A stretch of DNA of 64,000 bases from an uncultured Gellertiella sp. (GTDB lineage Bacteria; Pseudomonadota; Alphaproteobacteria; Rhizobiales; Rhizobiaceae), in NCBI GenBank assembly GCA_963457605.1, contig OY735138.1. One strand, written 5' to 3'. The notes beneath the pieces were generated by a model. That model did not search any database, was not told the origin of the DNA, and worked only from the letters and a program-made list of their open reading frames with translations. How positions within the stretch are numbered: the first letter of the stretch is position 1; every line of letters begins with the position of its first letter. Positions 35,322-52,581 of the stretch are shown here, in pieces. The position numbers were made by a program, and so were the translations under genes.

Positions 35322-35331
35322 TACCCCGCCT

Positions 35332-35368
35332 GGCGTCTGTCTGGTTCACATTGAACCGGACAGACGCC
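35332..35368. repeat. REP-like palindromic hairpin element, copy B
   Basis: GGCGTCTGTCTGGTTCA-cat-TGAACCGGACAGACGCC, a 17-bp stem with one T/G mispair at the same position as in copy A. Confidence 0.85.
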
Positions 35369-35468
35369 AAAGCAGGAGTTGCTTTGCGCTGATCTCACGA
35401 TAACATCCGCAAGCCGGGAGCGAAGGCATGCCTTGCCGCCCCGGCGGATGACAGGGAGATTTTTGACC

Positions 35469-35999
35469 ATGGACATGACGGGTTCCCAGAGAATCGACGC
35501 CAGCCGCGAGGCGGTCTATGCCGGGCTCAACGATATCGACGTGCTCCGGCAATGCATCCCGGGATGCGACAGTATCGAAAAGACCTCGGACACCGGGATG
35601 GTGGCGAAGGTCACGCTGCGCATCGGGCCGGTCAAGGCCAGCTTTTCCGGCAAGGTGACGCTGTCCGATCTCGATCCGCCGAATGGCTACACGATATCAG
35701 GCGAGGGCTCGGGCGGCATGGCAGGCTTTGCCAAGGGCGGGGCCGAGGTGAAGCTCGAGGCCGATGGGGCCGCCACCATCCTGCACTACAGCGTCAAGGC
35801 CGAAATCGGCGGCAAGCTCGCCCAGCTCGGCAGCCGGCTGATTGATGGCACCGCCAGGAAACTGGCGGGCGATTTCTTCGAGACATTTGGCGGCATTGTC
35901 GGCGCGCCTTCGCCGGACCCGGAGAAGGGGCCGGAAGAGCCCGAAACCGGCGGCGAACCCGCGGCCAAAAAGGGCTGGATCAGCAAACTCATCGGCTGA
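35469..35999 (+). CDS. CoxG-like SRPBCC-fold protein (carbon monoxide dehydrogenase subunit G family)
   Basis: Tail of ORF 35379..35999, start at ATG 35469. MDMTGSQRIDASREAVYAGLNDIDVLRQCIPGC and GKLAQLGSRLIDGTARKLAGDFF are typical of the CoxG family. Confidence 0.8.
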   Translation: MDMTGSQRIDASREAVYAGLNDIDVLRQCIPGCDSIEKTSDTGMVAKVTLRIGPVKASFSGKVTLSDLDPPNGYTISGEGSGGMAGFAKGGAEVKLEADGAATILHYSVKAEIGGKLAQLGSRLIDGTARKLAGDFFETFGGIVGAPSPDPEKGPEEPETGGEPAAKKGWISKLIG

Positions 36000-36010
36000 G
36001 GGGTGCGGCA

Positions 36011-36055
36011 GCCTGACGTCTGTCAGGTTGATATTGAACCTGACAGACGTCAGGC
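36011..36055. repeat. REP-like palindromic hairpin element, copy C
   Basis: GCCTGACGTCTGTCAGGTT-gatattg-AACCTGACAGACGTCAGGC, a perfect 19-bp stem. Between the convergent coxG-like and arsC genes, so a plausible bidirectional terminator. Confidence 0.85.
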
Positions 36056-36076
36056 CGGCCCCCGCCAGACCTGCGC

Positions 36077-36496
36077 TCAGATCCGCTTGCCGCTTGCGTC
36101 CAGCACCACTTCGCCATCTTCCTTGGAAAACGGCCCCCTGTGGGTGTCCGGCAGGATCTCCAGCACCTGTTGCGAGGGGCGGCAAAGCCGTGTGCCGAGC
36201 GGCGTGATGACGAAAGGCCGGTTGAGCAGGATCGGATGGGCGAGCATCGCATCCAGGATCACCTCGTCTGTGATCTCCGGCCTGTCCAGTCCCAGCGTCG
36301 CGGCCACCGCTTCCTTCTCCCGCAAGGCTTCGCGCACCGAAAGCCCGGCCGCCGCAATCATTGTCCGCAGCGCCTCCTTGTCCGGAGGGGTCGTGACATA
36401 ATCGATGATCTCCGGCTCGATGCCGGCATTGCGGATCATCGCCAGCGTGTTGCGCGAGGTGCCGCAGGCGGGATTGTGATAGATCCTGGTATCCAT
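36077..36496 (-). CDS. arsC: arsenate reductase (glutaredoxin-coupled ArsC family)
   Basis: Tail of ORF 36077..36667, start at ATG 36496. IYHNPACGTSRNTL, HPILLNRPFVITPLGTRLCRPS and GPFSKEDGEVVLDASGKR are collinear with enterobacterial ArsC. Confidence 0.9.
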   Translation of the reverse strand: MDTRIYHNPACGTSRNTLAMIRNAGIEPEIIDYVTTPPDKEALRTMIAAAGLSVREALREKEAVAATLGLDRPEITDEVILDAMLAHPILLNRPFVITPLGTRLCRPSQQVLEILPDTHRGPFSKEDGEVVLDASGKRI

Positions 36497-36524
36497 GTCC
36501 GTTGCTCCTTCCCCCGAAAGGTTG

Positions 36525-38858
36525 TCAGGCCGCCGACAGCGCCGAAAACGCCCGGTCCAGCGCCTGCAGGGCAAAATCCGCATCGGCGCGGGTGAAGACC
36601 AGCGGCGGGCGCATCTTGATGATATTGCCGTCGACCCCTTCCGAGCCAACCAGAACCCGGTGATCACGCAGGAGATTGACCAGCTTTTTGGTCTCAGCCG
36701 CAGCGGGCGTGCGCAACTCCCTGTCGGTCACGAGTTCGATGCCGATGGCGAGACCGCTCACCCTGACATCGCCGATCAGGCTGTGGCGCTGCTTGAGGGC
36801 GAGCAGGCCCGCCTTGACATGCGCCCCGAGTGTTGCGGCATTTTCCATCAGCTTCTGGTTCTCGATCACGTCGAGCACCGCAAGACCGGCGGCGGAGGAA
36901 ACATTGTTGCCGCCAAAGGTCGAGAAGAAGGCGCTCTGGCGGATGAAGTGGTCGTAGATTTCCGGGCGGGTGATGACGGCACCGATCGGATGGCCATTGC
37001 CGGCCGGCTTGCCGATGGTGATGATGTCCGGCACCACGCCATGCATCTGATAACCCCAGAAATGCTGGCCCATCCGGCCAAAGCCCGACTGGACCTCATC
37101 GGCAATGCACAATCCGCCGGCCCGCCGCACCCGGTCGAAGACCCCGGCGACATAGCCCGGCACCGGTTCCAGCAGACCATTGGCGATAAAGGCGGAATCG
37201 ACGATGACGGCGGCGGGCTTCATGCCATCGCGGGCCAGCGATTCAATCGCCCGGTCGGCATCCGCGGCACATGTCCCGGCAAAGTCCGCATCCTGTCCGG
37301 CAGGCCCGGCCCGGTAGCGGTCCGGTGCCATCAGCGTGCGCACATGCCGGGCCAGCGTGCCCGTGCGGTTGGCCGAAGGCGAGACCGCGTCGATGGCCTC
37401 GGTAATGCCGTGATAGGCGAAGTCCTGGGTGAGGAAACCCTGTGCGCCCGTCCAGGCGCGGGCGATCCGCCAGGCGATGTCATTGGCCTCGCTGCCGGAA
37501 TTGACGAAGGTGCAGACCGAGAGCTCGCCACCGGCAAGGACGGTCAGCCGCTCGGCATAGTCGAGAACCTGGGTGCCGAGATAGCGGGTATTGGTATTCA
37601 GCAACCGGCTTTGCCGGACGATTGCCTCCACCACATCAGGCTGGCAATGGCCGACAATCGGCACATTGTTGTAGCAGTCGAGATAGGAGGTGCCATCGGC
37701 GGCATGCAGCCAGACGCCCTCGCCGCGCACCAGATGCAGCGGCGGATCGTAAAACACATAGAGTTCCGATCCCATCGCCTTGCGGCGGCGGCGGATCAGC
37801 TCTTCGACCTCATTGGCCTGCGGCTGCGATTGCGGCAGGCCGCAGGTCTTGCGCAGGATCGCCGTCACCCTGGCGCGGCCCAGCGCGGCAAGCGCCTGCA
37901 TGGCATCGGCCGCCCCGAACCCTTCCACATCCATGTAATTGGGCACATCCGGCGTTTCGCTGCGCCTGTAGGCATTGATCAGCTGGGTGATGGCCAGCCG
38001 GGTCATCACCAGGTCGTAGAGCAGATCCACCTCCGCAGCTTCGAGCGGCGTGACGCCATGATAGCCGGCGGTCAGCGCGTTGAGCACCATCTCGACCCGT
38101 TCAGGCGCGGTGATGAAATCGCAGACCGCTCCGGCAAGATCAAAGATCAGCGGCCCATGCAGCATGTCGCCGAAATCGATGATGCCGGCCACGTCCCTGC
38201 CGGGGCCGAGCAGCAGATTATGCTCATGCATGTCGCAATGGATCACCTGGGCGCGCAGAGTGTCGAGCTGCGGCCTGACGGTCCCGACAAAACGGTCGAT
38301 GGCCGCAGCCACAAGATCACGCTGGTCCGGTTCGGCGATGAAGGTGAGATAGGGCCGGTACCGGTCAGCCATGCGGGGATCCCAGAGCAGGTCCCGGTTG
38401 CCGGCGGCGGCGTGGAAATAGCCGCGCATGGCGAGGCCCAGGCGTGCCTGCATCGCGCCGACGCGGCGGAAGGTTTGGGCATCCATCGCCACCTGCGCGG
38501 CAAGATCGCCCTCCAGATAGGAAAGCACATAGAAATCATGGCTGCGACCGTCGGCGGCGGTGATCCTGACGGTCTTTTCGCCATTGACGGTCAGCCGGAC
38601 GCGGGGAACCGGAATATCCGGCGCGACCCTTTCGATATGGCGCAGCACGCCGATCTGGCAATCCAGCATGTCGAAGGGTTCGTCCGCATTGGCGATCTTC
38701 AGGATGAAAGCCGTGCCATCCGCGGCACGCAGCCGGGAATTCTGATCGCGCTCGCTGTAGAGGGGGGTAATGGTACCTTCAAGACCGAAATGCCGTCGTG
38801 CATGCCCTTCGATTTCGTCCAGAGTGAACAGGGGCGGAGTAGCAGACAGGAATTTCAT
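36525..38858 (-). CDS. fusion protein: APH-type phosphotransferase (kinase) domain + class-III PLP aminotransferase-fold domain
   Basis: Tail of ORF 36525..39047, start at ATG 38858 (MKFLSATPP). The N-terminal ~330 aa carry the APH/choline-kinase signature ([22 protein letters not shown]). The C-terminal ~440 aa are class III aminotransferase-like ([41 protein letters not shown]). Confidence 0.8.
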
Positions 38859-39504
38859 CGGACATCTTCCATAGCGACAGAGGCGTGATGGCAAACACCG
38901 GAACGCAGGCGCGTGCGCAGCGACAAGGACGCCACGCCCATGTTTTCGCGCGCCCTGTTCTGCCCTGAATTCAGGAAGGAACGAACGCAGGCGCACGTCC
39001 CCAGCCGCAGCCGATGGTCTGCCAGGACCGTGGTCATCGCCCGGCATCTCGCCGGAGTCAACGCCATTTATGCAAAATATTCAACGGGTCAGGGGAGTTC
39101 TGAACAAGGGCGAAGAGCAGGTCCCACCCGAAATTGAATATTCCGGAGGAGAGATCCTGACGGCGCGGTCTGCCGCTCTGCCGCACGCTCGTGACCGGTG
39201 CCGGCAATGGCCGGTCTTCCGGCAGGGGGGAGAGGCCGGAGGGCTCCCGCCCGACCGGATCCCGCCCACGCGCAGGAAAAAAATATTTATAAACAACAAC
39301 ATAAAGCACATCCCCTGATGTGGTCATGACTGGCGTGGCACCCGCTCCCAGGCGCATCGCCGGATGGCTTGACCTTGCTGCGGATGAACGATTGGCGAGC
39401 CCGAAGTGGCACAGGCACCCGAAGACAGGATTTTGCGGCTGGAATCCGGCTTTCCCGCGCGCACAGGTTTTCCTGACAAACTCCGGCCCGCCATCGGGGA
39501 TGGT

Positions 39505-39529
39505 TTGAAAGTTCCATAACATAGATTAT
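39505..39529. repeat. left boundary direct repeat (attL candidate)
   Basis: TGAAAGTTCCATAACATAGATTAT. Its reverse complement reads AGATAA-TCTATG-TTATGGAACTTTCA (ATAA-N6-TTAT, Xer/dif-like layout). Confidence 0.6.
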
Positions 39530-39574
39530 CTGATCTAATTGGGGAATTTCATGAACGCTTGAAAGGATGCGTTT

Positions 39575-39769
39575 ATGAAACGTCTTGTTTCTGTTCTTGT
39601 TCTGCCCCTCGCCCGTCGTGTTGGCGCTCTTGCTGCCAGTGCGACGGCTGGCGCGATGGTCGTTGATCCGGCCATTGCGGCACGTCTTGAGGCGTGGGTG
39701 GTTGCTGGCGCGATGCTAGCCGTCGATCTCGCCTCTGTCTATATCCGCCAGACACAGGAGGGTCGTTAA
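39575..39769 (+). CDS. small hydrophobic phage protein (64 aa; possible membrane/lysis accessory protein)
   Basis: ATG preceded by GAAAGGA. Two hydrophobic stretches (LVSVLVLPLA.., AWVVAGAMLAVDLASV). First ORF inside the repeat-bounded block. No family recognised. Confidence 0.5.
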   Translation: MKRLVSVLVLPLARRVGALAASATAGAMVVDPAIAARLEAWVVAGAMLAVDLASVYIRQTQEGR

Positions 39770-39772
39770 TTC

Positions 39773-40546
39773 CTGCAGTTTCTGCTGCCCGCGCTTGCGT
39801 CGGCAGCAACTGGACTTATCGGCGGAGCGATCAACGCCAGTGCCCAAAAGAGCGCTGCGGATCGGCAGTATCAGAACGATATTGCGGCGCGGGATGAACA
39901 GCGGGCGTATGATCGCGGGTCCCTTGATCGTCTCGTTGTTGACGCTGAGCGAGCGGGGTTTAACCCTCTGACCGTGCTGCGCAACGGCGGGACCTCCTAT
40001 GCCAATAGCGGCTTGCCTCTGCTGTCGCGGCGTGAAGTGGCGGATACCTCGCTGGGTGATGCCATTATCGCGGGTGGTCAGACTTTCGCGAATTCGTACG
40101 ATCCTGACTATGACCTTAAGCGGCAGGAGCGGATGAGCGTGATTGCATCTAATCTCGCGAGTGCGAAGGCTGCAACGCTGTCCGGCGTACGTCGCGGGCG
40201 TGCTGGTTACGGGTCGGGCTCTGTTTCTAAGCCGAAATCGGGTATTGGGGCCGGTCCAAACGGCGAGGTGTTGCCGCTTTATACCAAATGGACGGGCCGA
40301 GATGGCAAGGAAGTCTGGCTTCCTAATCCGGCGTTGCCTGATGACGATGTGTTCAAGGGTGCCGGGTTGGGCGAAGCGCAAACCTCTGGTTGGCAGCTGT
40401 ACGACGTTATCAACGATCGTATTAAGCAGCAAAAGGCACATCCGATGCCGTTTGGCCGTAAGGTCAAGGTTTTGCCGTCTTATGAAGAGCGGCAAAAACG
40501 AGCCCAAAAAATCATGAAAGGAGGTGCGCTGAACACGCCATGGTGA
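39773..40546 (+). CDS. Microviridae DNA pilot / minor capsid protein (VP2/H-like)
   Basis: The reading frame is open from 39770, directly after the in-frame TAA of the previous ORF, to 40546. N-terminal LLPALASAATGLIGGAINASAQKSAADRQYQNDIAARDEQRAYDRGSLDRLVVDAERAGFNPL matches the gly/ala-rich N-terminus and the ..AY.R.....AG(L/F)NP(L/M) motif of gokushovirus-type VP2. There is no ATG/GTG/TTG before GTG 39974. The listed start is the CTG 11 nt after a strong AGGAGG (39756..39761) and is tentative. Confidence 0.65.
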   Translation: MQFLLPALASAATGLIGGAINASAQKSAADRQYQNDIAARDEQRAYDRGSLDRLVVDAERAGFNPLTVLRNGGTSYANSGLPLLSRREVADTSLGDAIIAGGQTFANSYDPDYDLKRQERMSVIASNLASAKAATLSGVRRGRAGYGSGSVSKPKSGIGAGPNGEVLPLYTKWTGRDGKEVWLPNPALPDDDVFKGAGLGEAQTSGWQLYDVINDRIKQQKAHPMPFGRKVKVLPSYEERQKRAQKIMKGGALNTPW

Positions 40547-40626
40547 AGCTTTGCCGTGCCTGCGCCCGTCGTCGGGCGAAACTGCGTAAAATGTTGAAAA
40601 CGTTCAGGAAAGGAACGAAAAAATGA
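40540..40626 (+). CDS. 28-aa highly basic peptide (candidate J/VP8-like DNA-packaging protein)
   Basis: Not in the ORF track (too short). ATG 40540 lies inside the pilot stop region (ccATGgTGA). Translation is MVKLCRACARRRAKLRKMLKTFRKGTKK, with 12 of 28 residues K/R. Its TGA overlaps the capsid ATG (ATGA at 40623..40626). Confidence 0.55.
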   Translation: MVKLCRACARRRAKLRKMLKTFRKGTKK

Positions 40627-42269
40627 GCATTCCGTCTTTGAAGGCTCCGAATGGGCCTGATATCAATCGCATGCGGACACAGCCTATCGCTGTACCGCGC
40701 ACCATTCGGCGTCAGTCTATCAATAACCTGACCTCCCTGCCTGCTGGCAAGATGGTCCCCCTCGCCGCGATCCCGGTACTGCGTGAAGATGCGGTGCGCT
40801 CTGGGCAGATGCGGATCAGTTTCGAACATATGGAAACTGTTGAGGTCCTCATGAACGCGATCAATGTTCGCGTGATGGCCTATTTCGTGCCGATGCTGGC
40901 TCTCGCCCGTTTCAACGGGTCGATGGACCAGCTCAATCTGTCGCATGAGGGCAAGCCCCCTATCGTGGGGCAACCCGTTGTACCGTATATCGAGCAAATC
41001 GCCTTCGGCGCATATGGCAGCAATCCGGTTTACAAATATCTCGGTTTGCACGGCCAGCCAACGCAGATGGTGAATTCTGCCTATCTGGAGGCCTATAATC
41101 TGATCTGGAATTACCGCGCGAAGAACCGTTCGCCGGAGCTGACGTTGCGCGGGCGGCTTGATACCGGCCTTGCGCCTGCGTTCTGGCTGCACGATCGCTT
41201 CAAGCACATGGTTCCGGATTTCGATAACGCGAGTATCGATGGTCAGGTGCCCCTGAATGTCATCAATGCCAAGCTGCCCGTTAAGGGCGTTGGCCTGTTG
41301 TCCAATCCGACGACGCAGCTCAATACGGTGGTGCGCGAAAGTGATGCGAGTATCTCGACATTCCAGACGGCGTTTCTGCCGACTGCTCCGCAGCTTGTGC
41401 TGCGTGGCAGGGCGGTGACGGGCAATATCGTTCCTGATATTTTTGCCGAGCTCGCCCAAAATGGCATTACCGTTTCGCTGTCGAATATCGAGCTTGCCAA
41501 GAAAACGCAGGCTTTCGCGCGGCTCCGTCAGGAGCTCAATGAGCAAGACGATTATATCATTGATCTGCTTATGGACGGGATCAATATTCCGGAACAGGCA
41601 TTCAAGTGGCCGATGCTTCTTGCGGATCAGCGGACCATTTTCGGGCAGTCGAAACGCTATGCATCGGATGCCGCCAATCTGACGAAATCCGTGGTGAATG
41701 GCATGACGGAACTCGAAATTGCGTTTCGCGTGCCGCGTGTCGGCTGCGGCGGCGTGATCATGCTCGTTGCAGAGATCACGCCGGATCAGCTCTTTGAGCG
41801 CCAGGAAGACCCCTTCTTCGCCGCCGGGAATGTCAACGATCTCCCGCAGTATCTGCGCGATGAGCTCGACCCTGAAAAGGTCGACATCGTGCAGAATAAG
41901 CGTATCGACAGTTCCCACGGCACGCCTGCCGGAACCTTTGCGTATGAGCCCATGAATGCGCGGTGGAATATGGACCAGCCGCGTATTGGCGGGCAGTTCT
42001 ATCGCCCGCAGGTCAACACGGCGTTTGACGAGGATCGTCAGCGGATTTGGGCTTCCGAGGTCCTCAATCCGACGCTGTCGAGCGAATTCTACATTTGCAC
42101 GAACATCCACACAAAGCCGTTTGTCGTTACCAATCGCGATCCCTTTGAATGTGTTACGCAAGGGGATGTGTTTGTTGAGGGCAACACCGTGTTCGGGGGC
42201 CACCTCATTGAAGCTACCGACGATTACAATCGCGTTTATGCGGTCGCTCCGCAGACGCGCCTTGCCTAA
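40623..42269 (+). CDS. Microviridae major capsid protein (VP1/F-like)
   Basis: 548 aa, RBS AGGAAAGGAA. N-terminal LPAGKMVPLAAIPVLREDAV and SAYLEAYNLIWNYRAKN resemble the conserved capsid-F motifs (G.L.P...E.LPGD; AYN.I.N.Y.R). The size fits gokushovirus-like VP1. Confidence 0.85.
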   Translation: MSIPSLKAPNGPDINRMRTQPIAVPRTIRRQSINNLTSLPAGKMVPLAAIPVLREDAVRSGQMRISFEHMETVEVLMNAINVRVMAYFVPMLALARFNGSMDQLNLSHEGKPPIVGQPVVPYIEQIAFGAYGSNPVYKYLGLHGQPTQMVNSAYLEAYNLIWNYRAKNRSPELTLRGRLDTGLAPAFWLHDRFKHMVPDFDNASIDGQVPLNVINAKLPVKGVGLLSNPTTQLNTVVRESDASISTFQTAFLPTAPQLVLRGRAVTGNIVPDIFAELAQNGITVSLSNIELAKKTQAFARLRQELNEQDDYIIDLLMDGINIPEQAFKWPMLLADQRTIFGQSKRYASDAANLTKSVVNGMTELEIAFRVPRVGCGGVIMLVAEITPDQLFERQEDPFFAAGNVNDLPQYLRDELDPEKVDIVQNKRIDSSHGTPAGTFAYEPMNARWNMDQPRIGGQFYRPQVNTAFDEDRQRIWASEVLNPTLSSEFYICTNIHTKPFVVTNRDPFECVTQGDVFVEGNTVFGGHLIEATDDYNRVYAVAPQTRLA

Positions 42270-42279
42270 GGAGGGCACA

Positions 42280-42888
42280 ATGACCATTAAGCTGAATTCT
42301 CTCTCGCGGTGGGCCGTGCTCCGTGCCAAGGAGGCCCTTGGGTTCGACGGGCCGGATGACGTCGAGAGGCTCGTGCGCCTTAATCTCAACTGTCAGTCGC
42401 CGACGGATGTATGGATTAGCCGGCGGGATGGGGAAATTTCCTTCCTTTGCTTCGCTCCGGCAGGTCTTGAGACCATTGAATTTTATATCGATGGTGCGTT
42501 TTCGCTGCTCTTCGATGATGAGCGCGGCGAGGTGCAATACAATTGCGCCGAGTTCGAGCCGTCGCATTTCGAGATTGATGACCCCGTGATTTTCACGAAG
42601 ATCGCCGAAAGGCGGGATCGCAATCCGGCGATGGAAGAAATGCTGTACCGCGCTCAAGTCAACGTAGAACGGCGGCTTGCGCAACAGGCCGACGAGTATC
42701 AAATGGCGCTCGCTGCCATGGAAAGGAGATTGGCCGAACATGCCAGGACAGACGATCAGGGAACAACTGCTGGCGCAAGTTCAGCGCCTGTATCAGCACA
42801 AGGCACAGGCGGTGAAGGACCCGGCGAGATTGGCGGCGGCGTTGCTGGCGGCGAACAGGCGGGAGGCTCCGGCGATGGGGCGTCCTGA
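42280..42888 (+). CDS. phage hypothetical protein (202 aa; possible scaffolding-type protein with Gly-rich acidic tail)
   Basis: Tail of ORF 41956..42888, ATG 42280 after AAGGAGGG, 10 nt downstream of the capsid stop. No family recognised. The last ~50 codons overlap the M15 peptidase gene in another frame. Confidence 0.5.
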   Translation: MTIKLNSLSRWAVLRAKEALGFDGPDDVERLVRLNLNCQSPTDVWISRRDGEISFLCFAPAGLETIEFYIDGAFSLLFDDERGEVQYNCAEFEPSHFEIDDPVIFTKIAERRDRNPAMEEMLYRAQVNVERRLAQQADEYQMALAAMERRLAEHARTDDQGTTAGASSAPVSAQGTGGEGPGEIGGGVAGGEQAGGSGDGAS

Positions 42889-43375
42889 CGAAGCCGAGCC
42901 GGTGATCGGCGGGCGTTACGAAGCTGAGCTGAGGGCGATGAAAGACCTGGTCTATTGCCGGTCTGAGGCCTGCGGTCGCCAGCAGTATCATGCGGACCGC
43001 ACGCACGCTCATCCTGATATTCTGGAGTTCGAAAAACGCTTCGTGAAGCGTATGCGGACAATCGGTGTGCCGCTGTTTGCGCATACTATCTGTAGGTCTG
43101 TCGCCGATCAGAATGAGGCGTATATTCGTGGCCGCAGCAAGGCCCGTGCGGGGCAATCTCCGCATAACTACGGGCTTGCTGTGGATATTATCCATGGGAT
43201 CAAAGCTTGGGACCTTACTCGCAAGCAATGGGATATCCTCGGCCATGTAGGAGCGGAGGTAGCCGCCGCGCAAGGCGTTAAGCTTGAATGGGGCGGCAAC
43301 TGGCAGTTCTGGGACCCCGCCCATTGGGAGCTTGCAAATTGGCGCGAGCTTCGAGCGTCGTTGAAGCAGGTCTGA
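42740..43375 (+). CDS. peptidase M15 (VanY / D-Ala-D-Ala carboxypeptidase-like) cell-wall hydrolase, candidate endolysin
   Basis: Tail of ORF 42677..43375, ATG 42740 after GAAAGGAGA. Zn-ligand motifs of LAS/M15 peptidases: SPHNYGLAVD (H-x6-D) and DPAHWEL (D-x2-H). Confidence 0.75.
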   Translation: MPGQTIREQLLAQVQRLYQHKAQAVKDPARLAAALLAANRREAPAMGRPDEAEPVIGGRYEAELRAMKDLVYCRSEACGRQQYHADRTHAHPDILEFEKRFVKRMRTIGVPLFAHTICRSVADQNEAYIRGRSKARAGQSPHNYGLAVDIIHGIKAWDLTRKQWDILGHVGAEVAAAQGVKLEWGGNWQFWDPAHWELANWRELRASLKQV

Positions 43376-43548
43376 ATTAGCCTTTTCGGCATTTGAGAAA
43401 CGTCATCGCCGCATGTTCGGCGGTGGCGTAGTCGTGTCTGCCCCAAAGCCCGCTTGGATCAAAGCTGGCTGTAGGGATTTGGGGCAGACACGGCGGGCAT
43501 ACCTCTCCCTTGGTCATAGGTGCATTTAGTGACAGGACACGAAAGCCC

Positions 43549-44682
43549 ATGTGTTTAGACCCCGTGAAAATCGCTGACGTCGGCTTTGTGGCCTGTCGCG
43601 AATGCTGGCAATGTCGAGAGACCAAAATTGATGATTGGGTCGGTCGCAACATTGCCGAAAGTAAGTTTGCAAAGGCTGCGCACGTCGTAACCCTGACCTA
43701 TGGCCAGGATGACAAGACGGGCGACAGGGACCATATCCGCTCCGCCGTGCTGACTTACTCTGATGTGCAGAAATATCTAAAATACCTTCGGTCGGATGGC
43801 TATCCGGTGCGATATTTCGTGGTGGGTGAGTACGGATCGAAAAAAGGCCGCGCCCACTGGCACATAATTTTGTATTGGCAGGGGCCGGTCCCCGAACACA
43901 AAATCCGAGAAAATTTCCTGCAAAAGCATTGGCCACATGGCTGGTCCTATTGGGATAAGTGTACGTCTGAGGCGGTCAGGTATGCATGCAAGTATATCCT
44001 TAAAGACCCCGCTGATCATGAAAAGCAAGGCTGGGGGCCGATGCCGTCCAAAAAGCCGCCGCTTGGCGATGCATATTTCCGCGATCTCGCGCAGCGCTAT
44101 GTTGATCAGGGGCTTGCTCCGCAGCACCTGCGCTACAGCTTTCCAGAGGTCCGCCGCATCCCGAATGGGTATCGCGGTCGGACTGCAAAACAGTTTCGGG
44201 ATGCCATGCGTCCTGTGCGGTTCATGATGCATGGCAAGACGGCTGAGAATTTTATCTCCTATTTTATTTACCTTTGGCGTGAACGCTTTGGCGATGAGCC
44301 GCCTAAATCCGAATTGATTTGGGCTTATGAGAGTAAGCGCCTTGGTGAATACTTCGAATCTGTGGCTGAGCCACGATTTGATCGCCACGTCAAAGGGCCG
44401 GTGCCTAAGGCACCGCCGTTTGATGGGGCTAAAGTGCAGTTTAGCGAAAAGGCTAACTGCTATTACAGTGATACGGCATCGGGCCGTTTGTGGTTTTCCA
44501 TCGACAGTGAAGGAGATGCCGTATGGCACGACACCATAAGTCCTCGGGTAGACGAGACGCCAACAAACCGGACAACTGGCATGGGGGATCGCGTATCGAT
44601 GATACGCAAAACCGGACCATTCACACGGTCCGATCCCTCGACTTCTCGCCAGTCATACCGGGATCACTCCAAGGGGCTCTGA
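43549..44682 (+). CDS. Microviridae replication initiation protein (VP4/A-like HUH rolling-circle endonuclease)
   Basis: ORF 43510..44682, start moved to ATG 43549 (MCLDP). N-terminal C..C..CR......W..R...E, motif I HVVTLTYG, motif II (HUH) GRAHWHIILYW, motif III YACKYILKD (Y..KY..K). Confidence 0.9.
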   Translation: MCLDPVKIADVGFVACRECWQCRETKIDDWVGRNIAESKFAKAAHVVTLTYGQDDKTGDRDHIRSAVLTYSDVQKYLKYLRSDGYPVRYFVVGEYGSKKGRAHWHIILYWQGPVPEHKIRENFLQKHWPHGWSYWDKCTSEAVRYACKYILKDPADHEKQGWGPMPSKKPPLGDAYFRDLAQRYVDQGLAPQHLRYSFPEVRRIPNGYRGRTAKQFRDAMRPVRFMMHGKTAENFISYFIYLWRERFGDEPPKSELIWAYESKRLGEYFESVAEPRFDRHVKGPVPKAPPFDGAKVQFSEKANCYYSDTASGRLWFSIDSEGDAVWHDTISPRVDETPTNRTTGMGDRVSMIRKTGPFTRSDPSTSRQSYRDHSKGL

Positions 44683-44861
44683 GCCGCAAAGCGGTGTCGG
44701 TGGCCCCTGCCCGCCCCAAAAACTATAGCTCGATTATTGAGCGTCCCTCCTCTCCTGGACGAATATTGCCCCCGGCAACTCGTCCGGTGTCCACGGAATC
44801 GGCCCGGCCTGTGTCGCATTTGTCTCTTAAGCCGCCTGAGCCTGTAAAACAGTCGTCTCCC

Positions 44862-44984
44862 ATGGCGCGCGATAGGCTTCTTGATAGGCTGACTTGTAAA
44901 AAGCGACCTGACAGTGTAGACGCCGCGAAAACGCGTAAGCGGGGCGGCGGCGGCGGGCCTCGTAAATTTATCCCGTGGTGTTGA
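44862..44984 (+). CDS. possible small basic phage ORF (40 aa) within longer ORF 44523..44984
   Basis: ORF 44523..44984 overlaps the Rep 3' end in another frame. It is Pro/Ser-rich and ends in a basic tail (KKRPDSVDAAKTRKRGGGGGPRKFIPWC). The internal ATG at 44862 has no obvious RBS. Coding status is uncertain. Confidence 0.25.
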   Translation: MARDRLLDRLTCKKRPDSVDAAKTRKRGGGGGPRKFIPWC

Positions 44985-45140
44985 GGGAGGGTTTTGATGC
45001 GCTCGATAATCCGATATTACAAGTTTCGAATTAAGCTATGGCTTTTTCAGTTTTGTGTCGGTATCGTGTTCTTGACATTGGTAACGATTTTGCACCATTG
45101 TCAGTCTGTAAGTGGCTGATTTGCCACTGTCACTAAACCA

Positions 45141-45164
45141 GTGAAATTCCATACCATAGATTAC
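45141..45164. repeat. right boundary direct repeat (attR candidate)
   Basis: TGAAATTCCATACCATAGATTAC. Its reverse complement reads AATCGCGTAA-TCTATG-GTATGGAATTTCA. Shares TAATCTATG.TATGGAA.TTTCA with the left copy. Confidence 0.6.
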
Positions 45165-45334
45165 GCGATTATGTGATGAAGCCGCAGGGTTGAATTGTCC
45201 TGTTCTGGCAAAGTTCAAATGTCACACTCCCCCTGCTTGAGAGCTGCGGGAGGCCAGGATGACGGTCCAGCCGCCGGCGCATGTTCCGGAGGTGGTGGAT
45301 CCGGGCACCGCTGGTTCCGGGATCGCGGATCACC

Positions 45335-45460
45335 TTTTCCCGCTCGAACGTGTTTGAGCGCTCGAACGTGTTTGAGCGCTCAAACAAGTTCGCGCGAAAA
45401 GACGAACGAGAACAAGGAGACATAGAATCTGTCTGGTTCACTGTGAATCTGACAGACTCC
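45335..45460. repeat. mosaic intergenic repeat element, copy 1 (tandem 18-bp palindromic units + spacer + hairpin element D)
   Basis: TTTTCCCGCTCGAACGTGTTTGAG x2, then a degenerate third unit, then AAAAGACGAACGAGAACAAGGAGA, then hairpin AGAATCTGTCTGGTTCA-ctg-TGAATCTGACAGACTCC (45424..45460). Collinear with 51591..51700. Confidence 0.85.
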
Positions 45461-46307
45461 GGGTATCCACTTGCTGTTCGATGGCACCGAAGATGCTGTG
45501 GCCGGAGTGGTCCTTCATCTCGATGCGCACGGATTGGCCGGTGGAGAGGACGGGTGTCGTGTCCGTCCCCTTCATCGCGGCGCCCCGACCGGAGCTGATG
45601 ATCGTGCCGGCGGTGAGGCGGCGGGTTCGGGCCGCCCCGGCGATCAGTTGACCGAAATCGGCCCACCTGTCGGCATCGGCATTTTCCCGGCTCGGGGGCC
45701 GTCCGTCCAGGCCGACGAGCAAGGGCAGGCAAAGCTTGCCACCCTGCCAGGCGTCCCCCAGTTCATCGGGCGTCACCGCAACCGGCGAGAAGGCGGCGGA
45801 GGGATTTGCCTGGAGGGACCGGCCCATCGGCACAGGCCCGTCATCCATCGGCAGGTCGCGCAATGTCACGCCATTGGCCAGCAGCACAAGGCGGATCTTC
45901 TCCCGCGCCTCTGTCGCGCCCGTTCCCATCGGCACATCATCGACGATCACCGCTACTTCCGCACCGAAATCGATGCCGGCAGGCTGAAGGGCGGCGGGGA
46001 TGGGGTCGCGCGGGCCGGTGAAATTGCCGGATCCGCGCTGGGTGAGTTCAGGGGTGCCCGAGATCCATTGATAGGCGCGCGGCAGTGGAGAGGCCGCGTC
46101 ATGCTCATGAAACCGCAGTACCGGCTGGGTTCCGGTTTCCAGCCCCTCGGCCACCCGGACCAGCCGGGGCGCGACATGTTCCCAGTCGTCAAGCGCCTGC
46201 TGCAGGCTGCGGGCGATATGCCCGACATCCGTATACCGGGTGAGATCCCTGGAAACGACGACCAGACGGCCATCGCGTGTTCTGTCCTTGAGAGTGGCGA
46301 GTTTCAT
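45438..46307 (-). CDS. fumarylacetoacetate hydrolase (FAH) family protein
   Basis: ORF 45438..46340, start moved to ATG 46307 (MKLATLKDRTRDGRLVVVSRDL). FAH-family segments (ERFHEHDAASPLPRAYQW, FSPVAVTPDELGDAW, VRIEMKDHSGHSIFGAIEQ). The last codons and the stop lie inside hairpin element D. Confidence 0.7.
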   Translation of the reverse strand: MKLATLKDRTRDGRLVVVSRDLTRYTDVGHIARSLQQALDDWEHVAPRLVRVAEGLETGTQPVLRFHEHDAASPLPRAYQWISGTPELTQRGSGNFTGPRDPIPAALQPAGIDFGAEVAVIVDDVPMGTGATEAREKIRLVLLANGVTLRDLPMDDGPVPMGRSLQANPSAAFSPVAVTPDELGDAWQGGKLCLPLLVGLDGRPPSRENADADRWADFGQLIAGAARTRRLTAGTIISSGRGAAMKGTDTTPVLSTGQSVRIEMKDHSGHSIFGAIEQQVDTRSLSDSQ

Positions 46308-46459
46308 GTCTGGTCCATTTCCGCGTTTGCAAGGGCGCAACGCCCGGGGTCAGGGACCTCGGGCGACATCGCATTCCAGCACGCCGCATGGTCCCCGGCA
46401 AGACCCCTGATGACGCCATCCGCAACGGACAGGGCGTGGCCGGAGATCACCCATCGGGA

Positions 46460-49400
46460 TCAGTCCCCGCTTTCCACCGGCCGGACCTTGCGGCGTTGCA
46501 ACCGGCGCGGCAGGGATCGCAGGACGGCGGACAGCCGGTCGATCTCGACAAAGACCACCGGGGTCATGAACAGGGTCAGTATCTGGCTGACGATCAGGCC
46601 GCCAACCACTGCCACGCCCAGCGGGCGGCGCAGCTCGGAACTCGCCCCGGTGCCGAGCGCAACCGGCAGAGCGCCGAGCAGCGCGCAGAAAGTGGTCATC
46701 ATGATCGGCCGGAAGCGCTGCACCGCCGCATCATGGATCGCCCGCACGGGATCTGCCCCGGCCTCCCGTTGCAGCGTCAGCGCCACGTCGATCATCATGA
46801 TGGCGTTCTTCTTGACGATGCCGATCAGCATCAGCAGGCCGATCAGGGCGATGATCGACAGGTCGAAGCCGAAGACCCTGAGGGCGAGAAGCGCCCCGAA
46901 GGCCGCCGACGGCAGGCCGGACAGGATCGTCAGCGGATGGGCGAAGCTCTCGTAGAAGACGCCGAGCACCACATAGATGGTCAGAACTGCGGCTGCGATC
47001 AGGAGACCGGTATTGCTGCTGGCCTGCTGAAAGATCCGGGCGGCACCGGCATAGCTGGTCGTCACGCCCGGGGGCAGGGCGATCTCCTGCTTCAGCGCAT
47101 CGAGCCGCGCCGTTGCCGTGCCGAGCGAAACGCCCGGCGGCAGGTTGAAGGACAGGGTGACGGCGGTCAGCTGGCCGGTCTGGTTGACGGTCACCGGACC
47201 GGCTATGCGGGTGACGCTGGCAAAGCTTGCCAGCGGCACCAGCTGACCGGAGGCGGAGGCAATCCGGAGTCCGGCCAGCGACTGTTCATCCCATTGCCGC
47301 GACTGGTCATATTCCAGAATGACATTGTAATTGTTGCCGGTGGTCTGGATCTGGGTCACCACATAGCTGCCGAAGGCGGCTTCGAGCGTGCTGCGCAGCG
47401 TCGCGGCGGAGATGCCGAGCTTGCTCGCCCGGTCATCGTCCACCTCGACATGCGCCTGGAGCGCGTTGTTTTGCAGATCCGAGGCGACATCGGCGAAATG
47501 GCCAGGATCGGCGCGCATCGCATCGCCCAGCACCTGCGACCACTGCCGCGCCGCTGCGGCATCGATTGACTGCAACACCAGCTGATACTGGCTCTGCGAG
47601 CTGCGCCCGCCAAAGCGCAGGCTTTGTTGCGGCGTGATGAAGCTCTTGAGCCCGGCAACGGGAGCCAGCGCCTGGCGCAGCGACTGCAGCGTGTCCGCAA
47701 GCGCGGGGCGTTCGCCGACCGGTTTAAGCTGCACCAGCAGGCTGCCCGCATTGACGGCCGAGCCGCCTGGCCCTGCCCCCAGCGTCGAGGTGACATGTGC
47801 CACGGCCGGATCCTTCATCACCGCGGCAGCGGCCCTGGCCTGCAGGGCGCTCATCGCCGCAAAGGATATATCCTGCCGTGCCTGGAGTGAGACGGAGAGC
47901 ATGCCGATGTCTTCGGTCGGGAAGAAGCTGCGCGGCAGGGCGGAGAACATGTAGCCGGAGGCGCCGAGCGTTGCGGCAAAGACCAGCATGACCGGGAACC
48001 GGTGGTTCAGGCACCAGCCGACGCTGCGCCCATAGGCCCGGGCCACTTTCTCGAACAGGCCGTCGCGGGTGCCGCCATGGCCCGGGTCCTGCGGCAGCCG
48101 CGCCGCCAGCATCGGCGTGACGGTCAGCGACACGACGGCGGAGGACAGGATGGCCATGGTCACGACGATGCCGAATTCGTTCAGCACCCGCCCGACGATC
48201 CCACCCATCAGCAGGATCGGCAGGAAGACGGCGACCAGCGAGATCGACATGGAGACGATGGTGCCGACCACCTCGCGCGAGCCGGTGACGGCCGCCTCGA
48301 AGGGCGACATGCCGGCTTCGACATGGCGCACGATGTTTTCCAGCATGACGATGGCATCATCCACCACCAGACCGACCGAAAGTGTCAGGCCGAGCAGCGA
48401 GATATTGTCGATGGAATAGCCCATCACATACATCGCGCCGAGCGTGGAGACCAGCGACAGCGGTACCGCAAGGCCGGGAATGAGGGTTGCCGTCACCCGG
48501 CGCAGGAACAGGAAGATCACCAGAATGACCAGCCCGATGGTGATGAGCAGGGTCTTCTCGACATCGGCCACCGCCGCGCGGATCGACACCGAGGCATCGT
48601 TGACGACCGCTATATGCATGCCCGGCGGCAGGGCGGCCTCAAGGTCCGGCAGGCGGGCGCGAATGCTGTCGACGACCTGAACCGTATTGGCACCCGGCTG
48701 GCGCTGGACGGCCAGCACGATCGACGGCGTGCCATCGAGCCAGCTGCCCTGGTTCAGCACCGCCACGCTGTCGCGCACATTGGCAACATCCTCCAGCCGC
48801 ACGATGCGGCCATTCGGCCGGGCGATGACCAGGCTGCGGAAGGCTTTGGCATCGTTGCGCTGGGTGGCGACGTCGATGGTCAGCGACTGGCTTTCGTTTT
48901 GCAAGGTGCCGACAGGCGAATGGTCGTTTGCCGCGGCGATGGTGGAGGCGAGACTGTCGAGCGACAGGCCACGGCTGGCCATCCGGTTCGGATCGACCGA
49001 TACCCGTACCGCGTAACTCTTTGCCCCGAAGACCTGCGCCTGGGCGACGCCGGAGACGGTCGAAAGGGCCGGCGAGATGATGTTTTCGGCGACATCGTCG
49101 AGCCGGGTGATCGGCAGATTGTCGCCGGTGACCGCGAGAATGAGCACCGGGGAATCGGCGGGGTTGGACTTGCGGTAACCGGGCGGGGTCGAAAGGTTGC
49201 CGGGCAGCTGGCGCTGTGCTCTGGCGATGGCAGCCTGGATGTCGGCGGCGGCGGCGTCGATATCGCGGGCGAGATCGAACTGGACGGTGATCTGGGTGCT
49301 GCCGGGCGTCGAGCTGGCGCTGATCGTGTCAATGCCCGAAATCGTCTGGAACTGCTTGATCAGCGGGGTCGCCACCGTGCTTGCCATCGTGTCGGGCGCG

Positions 49401-52560: not shown

Positions 52561-52581
52561 GAAGGGATCAATTCCGTCTTT

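What the first reader, a model, noticed from the sequence alone, without database searches (positions are those of the whole stretch)
39505..45164. Complete-looking Microviridae (ssDNA phage) genome integrated in a high-GC rhizobial-type replicon
A 5.6-kb block is visibly AT-richer than its flanks and has every gene on one strand, with stop/start overlaps throughout.

It encodes the hallmark set of a microvirus:
- a 548-aa VP1/F-like capsid;
- a VP2/H-like pilot protein;
- a 28-aa arginine/lysine peptide;
- a rolling-circle Rep with all three HUH-superfamily motifs (TLTY, HWHIILY, YACKYILK).

It also carries an M15 peptidase, but no integrase, terminase or tail genes. The size falls within the usual microvirus genome range, and the block is bracketed by ~24-bp direct repeats.

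Lysogenic microviruses are established for Bacteroidetes and enterobacterial gokushoviruses but remain rare and poorly characterised in Alphaproteobacteria. The gene order here (small TM protein, pilot, basic peptide, capsid, unknown, M15 peptidase, Rep) does not match the classical phiX174 or Chlamydia-phage layouts.
Basis: partly seen in the sequence, partly recalled or inferred. Interest (0 to 1): 0.85.

Follow-up and report, generated by a model that had tools for sequence, protein, structure and literature searches.

The report
Microvirus prophage inserted at dif

Summary
Window 39509-45171 is a 5,635-nt block with lower GC (0.558 against 0.642 in the flanks) and all genes on one strand. 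It encodes a microvirus capsid, pilot, HUH Rep and M15 lysin, and no integrase.

- **Classification:** the capsid is 68% identical to Flyfo microvirus Tbat2_105 and 49% to cultured Rhizobium microviruses. Gene order is the standard Occultatumvirinae/Tainavirinae layout.
- **Empty site:** a near-isogenic metagenome contig (L007) carries the empty site, which gives exact attB, attL and attR.
- **attB is a true dif:**
  - It matches the Agrobacterium C58 dif at 24 of 28 positions.
  - It lies where GGGNAGGG (KOPS) polarity flips: 6:0 on the left, 1:9 on the right.
  - An IS1202-type end remnant sits 5 bp from its XerC arm.
- **Crossover:** it falls in or next to the 6-bp spacer.
- **Relatives:**
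  - Five related prophages on Agrobacterium plasmids, a 1.74-Mb Rhizobium/Agrobacterium-group contig and a Devosia contig are flanked by two dif-type sites; a sixth, in Rhizobium sp. CSW-27, is ambiguous on its left side.
  - Two free relatives carry the intact attP.

This is a new member of a known kind. The added value has three parts:
- clear dif/XerCD-type integration for a subfamily whose mechanism was called "elusive" in 2024;
- a conserved non-AUG start of the pilot gene;
- a missed basic virion-type ORF.

The parts
39509..39536 (-). attL, a hybrid dif-type site. Read on the - strand it is AGATCAGATAA-TCTATG-TTATGGAACTT: phage XerC arm, 6-bp spacer, host XerD arm.
   Evidence: Direct repeat. 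Rhizobiales dif-arm pattern with 2 mismatches, expected 0.03 per window. Three-way alignment with the empty site.
39537..39556 (+). Conserved phage sequence AATTGGGGAATTTCATGAAC that flanks attP on its XerC-arm side.
   Evidence: The same motif (AAATGGGGAATTTCGTGAAC) lies next to the dif-like site in free phages Flyfo Tbat2_105 and Tbat2_110 and in the Agrobacterium plasmid prophages.
39575..39769 (+). Small 64-aa protein with hydrophobic segments (membrane protein; holin-like role is inferred only).
   Evidence: ORF. Hydrophobic segments at residues 4-21 and 33-58. Positional homologs of 65-73 aa in all relatives. Ebor Gp1 is called a membrane protein (PMC11980548).
39756..39775 (+). Translation-start region of the pilot gene: GGAGG Shine-Dalgarno, the TAA stop of the small ORF, then TTC and CTG (39773).
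   Evidence: In the alignment of 7 genomes, GGAGG-N-TCG-N-TAATTC is invariant and is followed by CTG in 5 genomes or ATC in 2. No ATG, GTG or TTG occurs in frame until 39974.
39773..40546 (+). DNA pilot protein (VP2/H-like), 257 aa if translation starts at CTG 39773.
   Evidence: PHROG 11693 'pilot protein for DNA ejection', E=2e-4, covering residues 6-136. Alignment with relatives shows the invariant A-G-x-N-P-x-T motif (AGFNPLT in three of the four sequences). tblastn homology to the Flyfo phages begins directly after their small-ORF stop.
40540..40626 (+). 28-aa highly basic peptide (pI 12), a candidate J/VP8-like DNA-binding peptide.
   Evidence: ORF with an AGGAGG ribosome-binding site. 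Homologous small basic ORFs overlap the capsid start in Flyfo Tbat2_105 and pAtCG920.
40623..42269 (+). Major capsid protein (VP1/F-like), 548 aa.
   Evidence: The last found 1,271 homologs at E<=1e-20, and a 100% match labelled uncultured Gellertiella sp.
42280..42888 (+). Conserved acidic 202-aa protein (pI 4.5): beta-sandwich, long helix, Gly-rich acidic tail. Function unknown; a scaffolding role is a guess.
   Evidence: 43 homologs, all in microvirus-type contexts. AlphaFold model with pLDDT 85-93 for residues 10-100. No PDB match below E=1e-3. BFVD matches only to unnamed viral proteins of similar length.
42875..43375 (+). M15 family peptidoglycan peptidase (endolysin), 166 aa.
   Evidence: PF13539 at 4.9e-9. 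PHROG 465 endolysin at 9e-15. Start-codon context.
43400..43495 (+). Two strong hairpins in the M15-Rep spacer. A role as complementary-strand origin or terminator is inferred.
   Evidence: ssDNA fold of the 173-nt spacer gives -42.7 kcal/mol, z = -5.9. Inverted repeat I6.
43549..44682 (+). Rolling-circle replication initiator (VP4/A-like HUH Rep), 377 aa.
   Evidence: PF23343 at 9e-19, PHROG 942 at 2e-35. Motif positions.
44523..44984 (+). 153-aa very basic protein (pI 11.4) overlapping the 3' end of Rep, with a conserved C-terminus CKKRPDS..GGGG..K.(I/V)PWC. Probably a DNA charge-neutralising virion protein.
   Evidence: BLASTP at 7e-13 to the unannotated Flyfo ORF. Homologs in pAtCG920 and RHEph17. 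Same position, size and charge as Ebor Gp10, which is virion-associated by mass spectrometry (PMC11980548).
45127..45138 (+). Conserved phage sequence CTGTCACTAAAC that flanks attP on its XerD-arm side.
   Evidence: Present at the same place in two free relatives and three of the plasmid/chromosomal prophages.
45144..45171 (-). attR, a hybrid dif-type site. Read on the - strand it is TAATCGCGTAA-TCTATG-GTATGGAATTT: host XerC arm, same spacer, degenerate phage XerD arm.
45177..45236 (+). Host side: solo end remnant of an IS1202/ISNCY-type insertion sequence, beginning 5 bp from the XerC arm of dif.
   Evidence: Aligns with the left end of the ISNCY element that abuts the corresponding site in pAtCG920. 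Single copy in the window. IS1202-family elements target dif/pdif 5 bp from the XerC arm (PMC10132070). Also present at the empty site in L007.
1..64000 (.). KOPS (GGGNAGGG) polarity switch that marks the replication-terminus zone around the insertion site.
   Evidence: Left of the site 6 on + and 0 on -; right of it 1 on + and 9 on -; Fisher p = 8.7e-4. The best split point lies about 2 kb to the right of dif.

Best explanation
The block is the complete 5,635-nt genome of a temperate microvirus of the Occultatumvirinae type. This is the clade of the Rhizobium microviruses, Kirchberger's families 7/14. It is integrated as a prophage in an uncultured Gellertiella sp. (Rhizobiaceae).

It carries no recombinase. 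Between the basic ORF that follows Rep and the small membrane-protein gene it has a 28-bp mimic of dif (attP = AGATCAGATAA-TCTATG-GTATGGAATTT). The host's XerC/XerD recombinases recombined this site with the replicon's own dif (attB = TAATCGCGTAA-TCTATG-TTATGGAACTT). The crossover fell in or next to the shared 6-bp spacer. The result is two hybrid sites, attL and attR.

Shown here:
- the phage identity;
- the exact junctions and the empty site;
- the dif nature and terminus location of attB;
- the same architecture in independent relatives.

Inferred:
- catalysis by XerCD;
- the degenerate phage XerD arm in attR damping FtsK-driven excision;
- replication by the HUH Rep;
- lysis by the M15 peptidase together with the small membrane protein;
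- translation of the pilot gene from a conserved non-AUG codon (CTG here).
For: **Identity**
- Capsid 68% identical to Flyfo microvirus and 49% to cultured Rhizobium phages, against only 41 bits to the PDB capsid 9ffh/9ffg, presumed to be the Tainavirinae phage Ebor.
- Rep, M15 and pilot profile hits.
- Gene order identical to free relatives and to Ebor.

**Completeness**
- All eight ORFs are intact, with lengths like those of free genomes.
- The joined ends recreate the contiguous CTGTCACTAAAC-[dif-like]-AAATGGGGAATTTCGTGAAC region of Flyfo Tbat2_105 and Tbat2_110.

**Integration**
- L007 encodes the identical 777-aa neighbour gene and has a single site where the window has 5,635 extra bases.
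- The polymorphisms (AAG/AAA, ATAAC/ATACC) place the crossover inside CATAGATTA, that is the spacer plus 3 nt.

**attB is dif**
- 24 of 28 positions match the A. tumefaciens C58 dif. The XerD arm matches 11/11 and the XerC arm 10/11 (Carnoy & Roten, PMC2731167).
- Only attL and attR match the Rhizobiales arm pattern in the 64-kb window; 0.03 matches are expected by chance.
- KOPS convergence.
- An IS1202-type remnant lies 5 bp from the XerC arm.

**Generality**
- pAtCG920, pAt2788a and pAt1D1108a show the same layout: canonical XerD arm on the left site, degenerate XerD arm on the right site, identical spacer within each pair.
- A 1.74-Mb Rhizobium/Agrobacterium-group contig shows the same layout and also has KOPS convergence.
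- Devosia YR412 is flanked by two dif-type sites in the opposite orientation, with the XerC arm of the right site degenerate; Rhizobium CSW-27 has a dif-type site on its right side and an ambiguous left site.

**Precedent**
- XerC, XerD and the phage dif motif are experimentally required for enterogokushovirus lysogeny (PMC7062461).
- Ebor is flanked by dif motifs (PMC11980548).
Against: - No xerC or xerD gene was examined, because they lie outside the window. Nothing shows catalysis, excision or particle production.
- The exact capsid sequence is on a single contig, so no circular form was seen.
- The pilot gene has no canonical start codon. This appears to be a clade trait, but it is untested.
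- KOPS counts are small, the test was post hoc, and one motif is mis-oriented between dif and the best split point.
- GC skew shows no switch at the 64-kb scale.
- The replicon type (chromosome, chromid or plasmid) is unknown.
- Subfamily placement rests on similarity ranks, not on a phylogenetic tree.
Confidence: 0.85

Rival explanations
1. The element was integrated by the same route but is now a cryptic, non-inducible remnant that only looks complete.
For: The pilot gene lacks ATG, GTG or TTG ahead of its conserved N-terminal third. Only one contig carries this exact capsid, and no episomal copy was seen.
Against: All ORFs are full length relative to free phages. The missing canonical start is shared with free virome genomes, which have an invariant Shine-Dalgarno and a CTG/ATC codon. 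Both att sites are intact. A near-isogenic strain has the empty site (flanks about 91-99% identical, neighbour protein 100%), which implies a recent gain or loss.
Confidence: 0.2
2. The target is a dif-like secondary site, not the replicon's functional dimer-resolution site.
For: The XerC arm has one non-consensus base (GCGTAA) and the spacer differs from listed Rhizobiales dif sites. There is no GC-skew switch in 64 kb. The best KOPS split point is about 2 kb away.
Against: Both arms are near-perfect. It is the only such site in 64 kb and in 22 kb of L007. KOPS polarity is 15 of 16 consistent. A dif-targeting IS family left an end 5 bp from the XerC arm. Spacers are known to vary between replicons (PMC2731167).
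Confidence: 0.12
3. Integration was catalysed by something other than XerCD, for example the phage HUH Rep or a host integrase acting in trans.
For: No enzyme was tested. HUH Reps can mediate integration in some ssDNA elements (general knowledge).
Against: The junctions are 11-6-11 dif-type sites with arm swapping around an identical spacer in the five loci where both junctions could be read. The spacers differ from replicon to replicon in four of those five. There is no target duplication and no Rep nick-site logic.
Confidence: 0.04
4. The block is an assembly chimera or a contaminating virome contig joined to bacterial DNA.
For: The source is a metagenome-assembled contig.
Against: The hybrid sites have host-type and phage-type arms exactly as recombination predicts. 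The same architecture occurs in finished Agrobacterium plasmids.
Confidence: 0.02

Closest known systems
Occultatumvirinae prophages and phages (Zucker et al. 2022; Rhizobium chico- and chaparroviruses of Van Cauwenberghe et al. 2022; Kirchberger families 7/14)
   Same: Capsid and Rep similarity, genome size, GC of about 56%, Hyphomicrobiales host, and gene order: small membrane ORF, pilot, capsid, ~200-aa ORF, M15 lysin, Rep, basic ORF. Prophages occur on chromosomes and on large plasmids.
   Different: This is a new lineage: at most 70% capsid identity to anything held. The host genus Gellertiella did not appear in any text I retrieved. Those papers did not analyse att sites, and a 2024 paper states that dif motifs were not found in Occultatumvirinae prophages (PMC11499846).
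Enterogokushovirus prophages of Escherichia (Kirchberger & Ochman 2020)
   Same: No integrase. The phage carries a dif motif in a non-coding region. The prophage lies between a near-canonical dif and a more variable phage-derived one, with the variation mainly in the XerD arm. XerC/XerD dependence is proven there.
   Different: Different subfamily and gene set: no M15 lysin and no large basic ORF. Gammaproteobacterial host. In the present clade attP occurs in either orientation relative to the genes.
Ebor (Tainavirinae) of Rhodobacter capsulatus (mBio 2025)
   Same: Same gene layout, including the membrane ORF, a peptidoglycan hydrolase and a ~145-aa basic virion protein overlapping the 3' end of Rep. 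The prophage is flanked by XerCD/dif motifs.
   Different: Sister subfamily: the capsid match is only 41 bits, assuming PDB 9ffh/9ffg is Ebor. Ebor is reported inside the cbbII operon rather than at a KOPS-convergent dif. Ebor has a methylase.
Vibrio IMEX elements (CTX, VGJ, TLC; Das et al. 2013)
   Same: They exploit XerCD at dif. A degenerate arm in attP is a recurrent IMEX trait (from memory of that literature).
   Different: Those are filamentous phages or satellites. The sub-type here (XerC-first, XerD-first, or full two-step) cannot be told from sequence. The identical spacers in attL and attR are compatible with complete two-pair strand exchange.

Membership tests
Microviridae (Petitvirales) | F/VP1-type single jelly-roll major capsid protein | tested here: met
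   tblastn E=0 to annotated microvirus capsids. PHROG 514 at 1e-9. PDB microvirus capsid 9ffh at 8e-10. Pfam Phage_F itself gives no hit.
Microviridae (Petitvirales) | HUH rolling-circle Rep (VP4/A) | tested here: met
   PF23343 at 9e-19 and PHROG 942 at 2e-35. Three motifs located.
Microviridae (Petitvirales) | DNA pilot protein (VP2/H) | tested here: met
   PHROG 11693 at 2e-4, which is weak. Clear homology to the positional pilot genes of relatives.
Microviridae (Petitvirales) | Small (about 4-6.5 kb) circular ssDNA genome | tested here: inconclusive
   Size is 5,635 nt. Circularity is inferred because the joined ends match free circular genomes. The ssDNA nature is not testable from sequence.
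Occultatumvirinae (proposed) | Capsid and Rep cluster with the Rhizobium phages and tortoise/bat virome genomes rather than with Tainavirinae | tested here: met
   Identity ranks: Flyfo and Tortoise 55-68%, Rhizobium phages 44-50%, Roseobacter occultatumviruses about 41%. The PDB capsid 9ffh/9ffg, presumed to be Ebor, gives only 41 bits. No phylogenetic tree was built.
Occultatumvirinae (proposed) | Alphaproteobacterial (Hyphomicrobiales or Rhodobacterales) host | tested here: met
   100% capsid match labelled uncultured Gellertiella sp.. Gellertiella belongs to Rhizobiaceae.
IMEX (integrative elements exploiting Xer) | No self-encoded integrase | tested here: met
   All ORFs were scanned; none is a recombinase.
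IMEX (integrative elements exploiting Xer) | Flanked by 11-6-11 dif-type sites, with arms exchanged around the spacer | tested here: met
   attL, attR and attB from the three-way alignment. Pattern statistics.
IMEX (integrative elements exploiting Xer) | The target is the host replicon's dif | tested here: met
   24/28 to the C58 dif. KOPS convergence, p = 8.7e-4. IS1202-type end 5 bp from the XerC arm. No whole-replicon confirmation is available.
IMEX (integrative elements exploiting Xer) | Integration depends on XerC/XerD | not testable with these tools
   Needs genetics. The host xer genes are not in the window.

The most novel reading that the evidence does not exclude
This locus and its relatives would be the first clear demonstration of three things.

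1. Occultatumvirinae are Xer-exploiting temperate phages that target the true, KOPS-convergent dif of chromosomes and of large conjugative pAt plasmids. They do so with a positionally conserved attP that has one degenerate arm and can sit in either orientation.
2. Presence of attP separates lineages that can integrate from those that cannot. It is present in the window type, in Flyfo Tbat2_105 and Tbat2_110, and in the cultured chaparrovirus RHph_TM24. It is absent in the chicoviruses TM23 and RHEph17.
3. The clade translates its pilot protein from a conserved non-AUG codon (CTG or ATC) placed one codon after the stop of the upstream membrane-protein gene.
Probability: 0.55. Interest if true: 0.5.

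Novelty: new member of a known kind. Interest (0 to 1): 0.4.

Why it matters
Microviruses are among the most abundant ssDNA phages, and rhizobia are agriculturally important hosts.

- **Integration mechanism.** For the Occultatumvirinae the integration mechanism was explicitly called elusive (PMC11499846). Here an occupied site, an empty site and free-phage attP sequences together give base-level attB, attP, attL and attR. They place the target at a KOPS-convergent dif. That makes XerCD dependence directly testable with a synthesised genome, as was done for enterogokushoviruses.
- **Spread.** Such prophages also sit in the dif sites of conjugative Agrobacterium plasmids, which is a route for phage spread by conjugation.
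- **Annotation.**
  - The non-AUG pilot start means the pilot gene is truncated in current GenBank records of the clade.
  - The ~150-aa basic ORF overlapping the 3' end of Rep is not annotated in the two records I checked (Flyfo Tbat2_105 and RHEph17).

Tried and rejected
- **Pfam on the capsid:** no hit. A relative reaches only 21 bits on Phage_F, so Pfam alone would wrongly have "refuted" the finding.
- **Exact-protein look-ups:** the capsid, the 100%-identical database record P0001 and the fumarylacetoacetate-hydrolase-family (FAH) gene on the right flank found nothing.
- **Genome-collection scan with the single capsid sequence:** only 3 loci, and not the source genome.
- **tRNA and Rfam scans:** nothing relevant.
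- **GC skew at 64-kb scale:** uninformative.
- **Promoter and terminator scans:** not above shuffled expectation.
- **Flanks:** no remnants of older phage copies.
- **ORF202:** the structure model gave only generic beta-sandwich matches in the PDB. PDB sequence searches for the pilot, ORF202 and ORF153 found nothing.
- **Rejected ideas:**
  - That the missing canonical pilot start means decay. It is conserved in free genomes.
  - That the excess of KOPS motifs on the non-coding strand of the phage is an independent signal. The genomes are related and at least one motif encodes a conserved capsid peptide.

Full report
**Observation**

The block is real. Between about 39.5 and 45.2 kb the GC content falls to 0.558, against 0.642 in the flanks. 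Every credible ORF is on the + strand and 93% of the block is coding.

- A 17-nt core of the repeat occurs only at these two places in 64 kb, where 0.01 is expected by chance.
- There are no tRNA genes and no relevant Rfam match.

**Gene content**

Gene starts were refined from ribosome-binding-site context.

| Coordinates | Product | Main evidence |
|---|---|---|
| 39575-39769 | 64-aa protein with hydrophobic segments | |
| 39773-40546 | pilot protein | PHROG 11693 E=2e-4 over residues 6-136; invariant A-G-x-N-P-x-T motif, AGFNPLT in three of four sequences |
| 40540-40626 | 28-aa peptide, pI 12.0 | homologous small basic ORFs in Flyfo Tbat2_105 and pAtCG920 |
| 40623-42269 | major capsid protein | 68% to Flyfo microvirus Tbat2_105, 44-50% to cultured Rhizobium microviruses, about 41% to Roseobacter occultatumviruses; PHROG 514; PDB 9ffh/9ffg 8e-10; Pfam silent |
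| 42280-42888 | acidic 202-aa protein, pI 4.5 | conserved in microvirus-type contexts |
| 42875-43375 | M15 peptidase | PF13539; PHROG endolysin |
| 43549-44682 | HUH Rep | PF23343 9e-19, PHROG 942 2e-35; motifs at residues 48, 103, 145 |

- The C-terminus of the 153-aa protein (CKKRPDS..GGGG..K.(I/V)PWC) is conserved in Flyfo Tbat2_105, pAtCG920 and RHEph17.
- It matches in position, size and charge the virion-associated Gp10 of the tainavirus Ebor (PMC11980548).
- No ORF is a recombinase, terminase or tail protein.
- The gene order is the same as in Flyfo and Tortoise virome genomes, in the cultured Rhizobium phages and in Ebor. It is therefore the normal layout of Occultatumvirinae and Tainavirinae, cut open between the basic ORF and the small membrane ORF.

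**Boundaries and empty site**

The 777-aa kinase-aminotransferase gene on the left flank occurs with an identical product on a 315-kb metagenome contig (L007). On that contig the same two flanking genes lie 1.07 kb apart, instead of 6.58 kb as in the window. A three-way alignment (sequence) shows what happened:

- L007 follows the window's left flank up to AAGTTCCATAACATAGATTA.
- It then continues as the window's right flank, CGCGATTATGTGATG....

Read from the XerC side, the sites are:

| Site | Sequence (XerC arm - spacer - XerD arm) | Location |
|---|---|---|
| attB | TAATCGCGTAA-TCTATG-TTATGGAACTT | L007 9270-9297 |
| attL | AGATCAGATAA-TCTATG-TTATGGAACTT | window 39509-39536 |
| attR | TAATCGCGTAA-TCTATG-GTATGGAATTT | window 45144-45171 |
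| attP (reconstructed) | AGATCAGATAA-TCTATG-GTATGGAATTT | joined ends |

The two polymorphic positions in the repeat keep host variants in attL and phage variants in attR. The exchange therefore lies in CATAGATTA, which is the 6-bp spacer plus three bases. The inserted DNA is 5,635 nt.

**The target is dif**

- attB matches the predicted chromosomal dif of A. tumefaciens C58 (TAATCGCATAAGATATATTATGGAACTT) at 24 of 28 positions. The XerD arm matches 11/11 and the XerC arm 10/11. It resembles the other Rhizobiales dif sites listed by Carnoy & Roten (PMC2731167).
- The arm pattern ATCGCATAA-N6-TTATGGAAC with up to 3 mismatches hits only attL and attR in the window, where 0.03 is expected. It hits only attB in L007.
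- The FtsK-orienting motif GGGNAGGG is used for Agrobacterium in PMC12153318. It is 6:0 (+:-) to the left of the site and 1:9 to the right, Fisher p = 8.7e-4. The cleanest switch lies about 2 kb to the right.
- Five bases beyond the XerC arm, the host DNA (also in the empty site) carries about 60 nt that align with the terminal region of an ISNCY-annotated IS. That IS abuts the equivalent site in pAtCG920. IS1202-family elements are known to insert 5 bp from the XerC arm of dif and pdif sites (PMC10132070).
- GC skew is uninformative at this scale, and the replicon type is unknown.

**Relatives**

- *Agrobacterium plasmids.* Related prophages in pAtCG920, pAt2788a and pAt1D1108a are each bracketed by two sites. 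The left site has a canonical XerD arm (TTATGGAACTT/C). The right site has a degenerate one (ATAGGGAATTT or ATATGGAATTT). The spacer is identical within each pair but differs between replicons: TATAGA, GATAGA and TATATG.
- *Chromosome-size contig.* A 1.74-Mb contig of the Rhizobium/Agrobacterium group shows the same layout, again with GGGNAGGG polarity converging there.
- *Opposite orientation.* Devosia YR412 is flanked by two dif-type sites in the opposite orientation relative to the phage genes, with the XerC arm of its right site degenerate. Rhizobium CSW-27 has a dif-type site on its right side; its left side looks like an intact attP rather than a hybrid, and I did not resolve it.
- *Free virome genomes.* Flyfo Tbat2_105 and Tbat2_110 carry a contiguous attP between the conserved CTGTCACTAAAC and AAATGGGGAATTTCGTGAAC. 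These are exactly the two sequences that lie at opposite ends of the window prophage.
- *Cultured phages.* The chicoviruses RHEph17 and TM23 have a short spacer there and no dif-like motif. The chaparrovirus TM24 has AAGTCGCATAA-TCTGTC-ATCTGGAACCA at that position.

**Mechanism**

The best-supported reading is Xer-mediated integration of a dif mimic into the replicon's dif. This has been proven genetically for enterogokushoviruses (PMC7062461) and described for Ebor.

- Shown: sites, junctions and architecture.
- Inferred: catalysis by XerCD.
- Interpretation only: that the degenerate XerD arm left in attR reduces FtsK-activated excision, and that dimer resolution continues at attL, where KOPS polarity converges.
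- Two strong ssDNA hairpins in the M15-Rep spacer (z = -5.9) may act as a complementary-strand origin or a terminator.

**Pilot gene start**

The pilot frame is open from the base after the small ORF's TAA stop. It has no ATG, GTG or TTG until GTG 39974, which lies inside the conserved NPLTVLRNGG segment.

- tblastn homology to the Flyfo phages starts immediately after their small-ORF stop.
- Translations of six relatives show a conserved F-(L/I)... peptide directly after the stop.
- At DNA level all seven genomes share GGAGG-N-TCG-N-TAATTC followed by CTG in five genomes or ATC in two. Both are near-cognate start codons, 11 nt after the Shine-Dalgarno sequence.

I infer a conserved non-AUG start at CTG 39773. 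Read-through of the stop to give a membrane-pilot fusion is not excluded. In either case this is a clade trait and not a sign of decay.

**ORF202**

It has 43 homologs, all in microvirus-type contexts.

- The model has a confident beta-sandwich at residues 10-100, a long helix at 116-157 and a disordered acidic tail.
- No PDB match is below E=1e-3.
- BFVD matches are only to unnamed viral proteins of similar length.
- A scaffolding role is a guess based on position and charge.

**Host and novelty**

The capsid and ORF202 are 100% identical to proteins labelled uncultured Gellertiella sp., on a 210,842-bp contig. Gellertiella belongs to Rhizobiaceae.

- The next-best capsids are at most 70% identical. 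They include both 5-6-kb contigs and large Rhizobium, Agrobacterium, Aminobacter and Pseudaminobacter contigs.
- Prophages of this clade are documented: PMC9753089 (including three on large plasmids), PMC9512667 and PMC9239249.
- The Zucker et al. paper does not mention Xer or dif for the clade beyond one introductory sentence, and targeted term searches of PMC9512667 and PMC9239249 showed nothing on it. PMC11499846 states that dif motifs were not identified in Occultatumvirinae prophages and that the mechanism remains elusive.

The finding is therefore a new member of a known kind. It adds a modest but concrete mechanistic point.

**Caveats**

- The evidence is sequence only.
- KOPS counts are small.
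- L007 is a low-coverage long-read assembly with indels and a fragmented RND (efflux transporter) gene.
- Subfamily placement has no phylogenetic tree behind it.
- No xer genes were inspected.
- There is no evidence of induction.

Noticed in passing
window 45177-45236 (also L007 about 9205-9265; L002 9794-11430): About 60 nt that begin 5 bp from the XerC arm of dif align with the left end of an ISNCY/IS1202-type IS. That IS abuts the equivalent site in Agrobacterium plasmid pAtCG920. In the window there is no transposase and no second end, so this is a solo end remnant of a dif-targeting IS.
   Followed up: partly
L014 (Rhizobium phage RHph_TM24, MN988464.1) 1817-1844: This cultured phage is described as lytic. 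It carries a dif-like motif (AAGTCGCATAA-TCTGTC-ATCTGGAACCA) in the same intergenic position as attP, in the opposite orientation. The chicoviruses TM23 and RHEph17 have none. TM24-type phages may therefore be able to lysogenise.
   Followed up: partly
window 39756-39775 and the homologous positions in L001, L002, L008, L009, L010, L012: An invariant GGAGG-N-TCG-N-TAATTC is followed by CTG or ATC. The pilot gene appears to start at a non-AUG codon one codon after the stop of the upstream ORF. GenBank annotations of the relatives start the pilot 8 to about 36 codons downstream.
   Followed up: yes
window 43400-43495: Two strong ssDNA hairpins lie in the M15-Rep spacer. One has a 19-bp stem at 43433-43451 / 43474-43492. 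The fold z-score is -5.9. Possible complementary-strand origin or terminator.
   Followed up: partly
window 44705; L001, L002, L008, L009, L010, L012 phage parts: GGGNAGGG motifs inside window-type phage genomes lie 16:1 on the non-coding strand. After integration the KOPS polarity therefore converges on attL, the site with the canonical XerD arm. The genomes are related, so the counts are not independent.
   Followed up: partly
L002 (pAtCG920), L008 (pAt2788a), L009 (pAt1D1108a): Large conjugative Agrobacterium pAt plasmids have dif-type sites occupied by microvirus prophages. In two of them an IS (ISNCY or IS30) is inserted right next to the site. Plasmid dif sites appear to be hotspots for several kinds of mobile element.
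   Followed up: partly
window 45341-45396: Tandem and palindromic 18-nt repeats (CGCTCGAACGTGTTTGAG, two copies plus an inverted copy) lie just downstream of the fumarylacetoacetate-hydrolase-family (FAH) gene. They are also present, in diverged form, in L007. Possible terminator or REP-like element.
   Followed up: no
L006 (Rhizobium sp. CSW-27) 6660-6760: The left end of this prophage shows a contiguous attP-like region (ctgtcgcattactaaat ... GGCGTAAGGCATCATCTGGATCG ... gtgaac) rather than a simple hybrid site. The true left junction may lie further upstream, for example through a tandem copy or a remnant copy.
   Followed up: no
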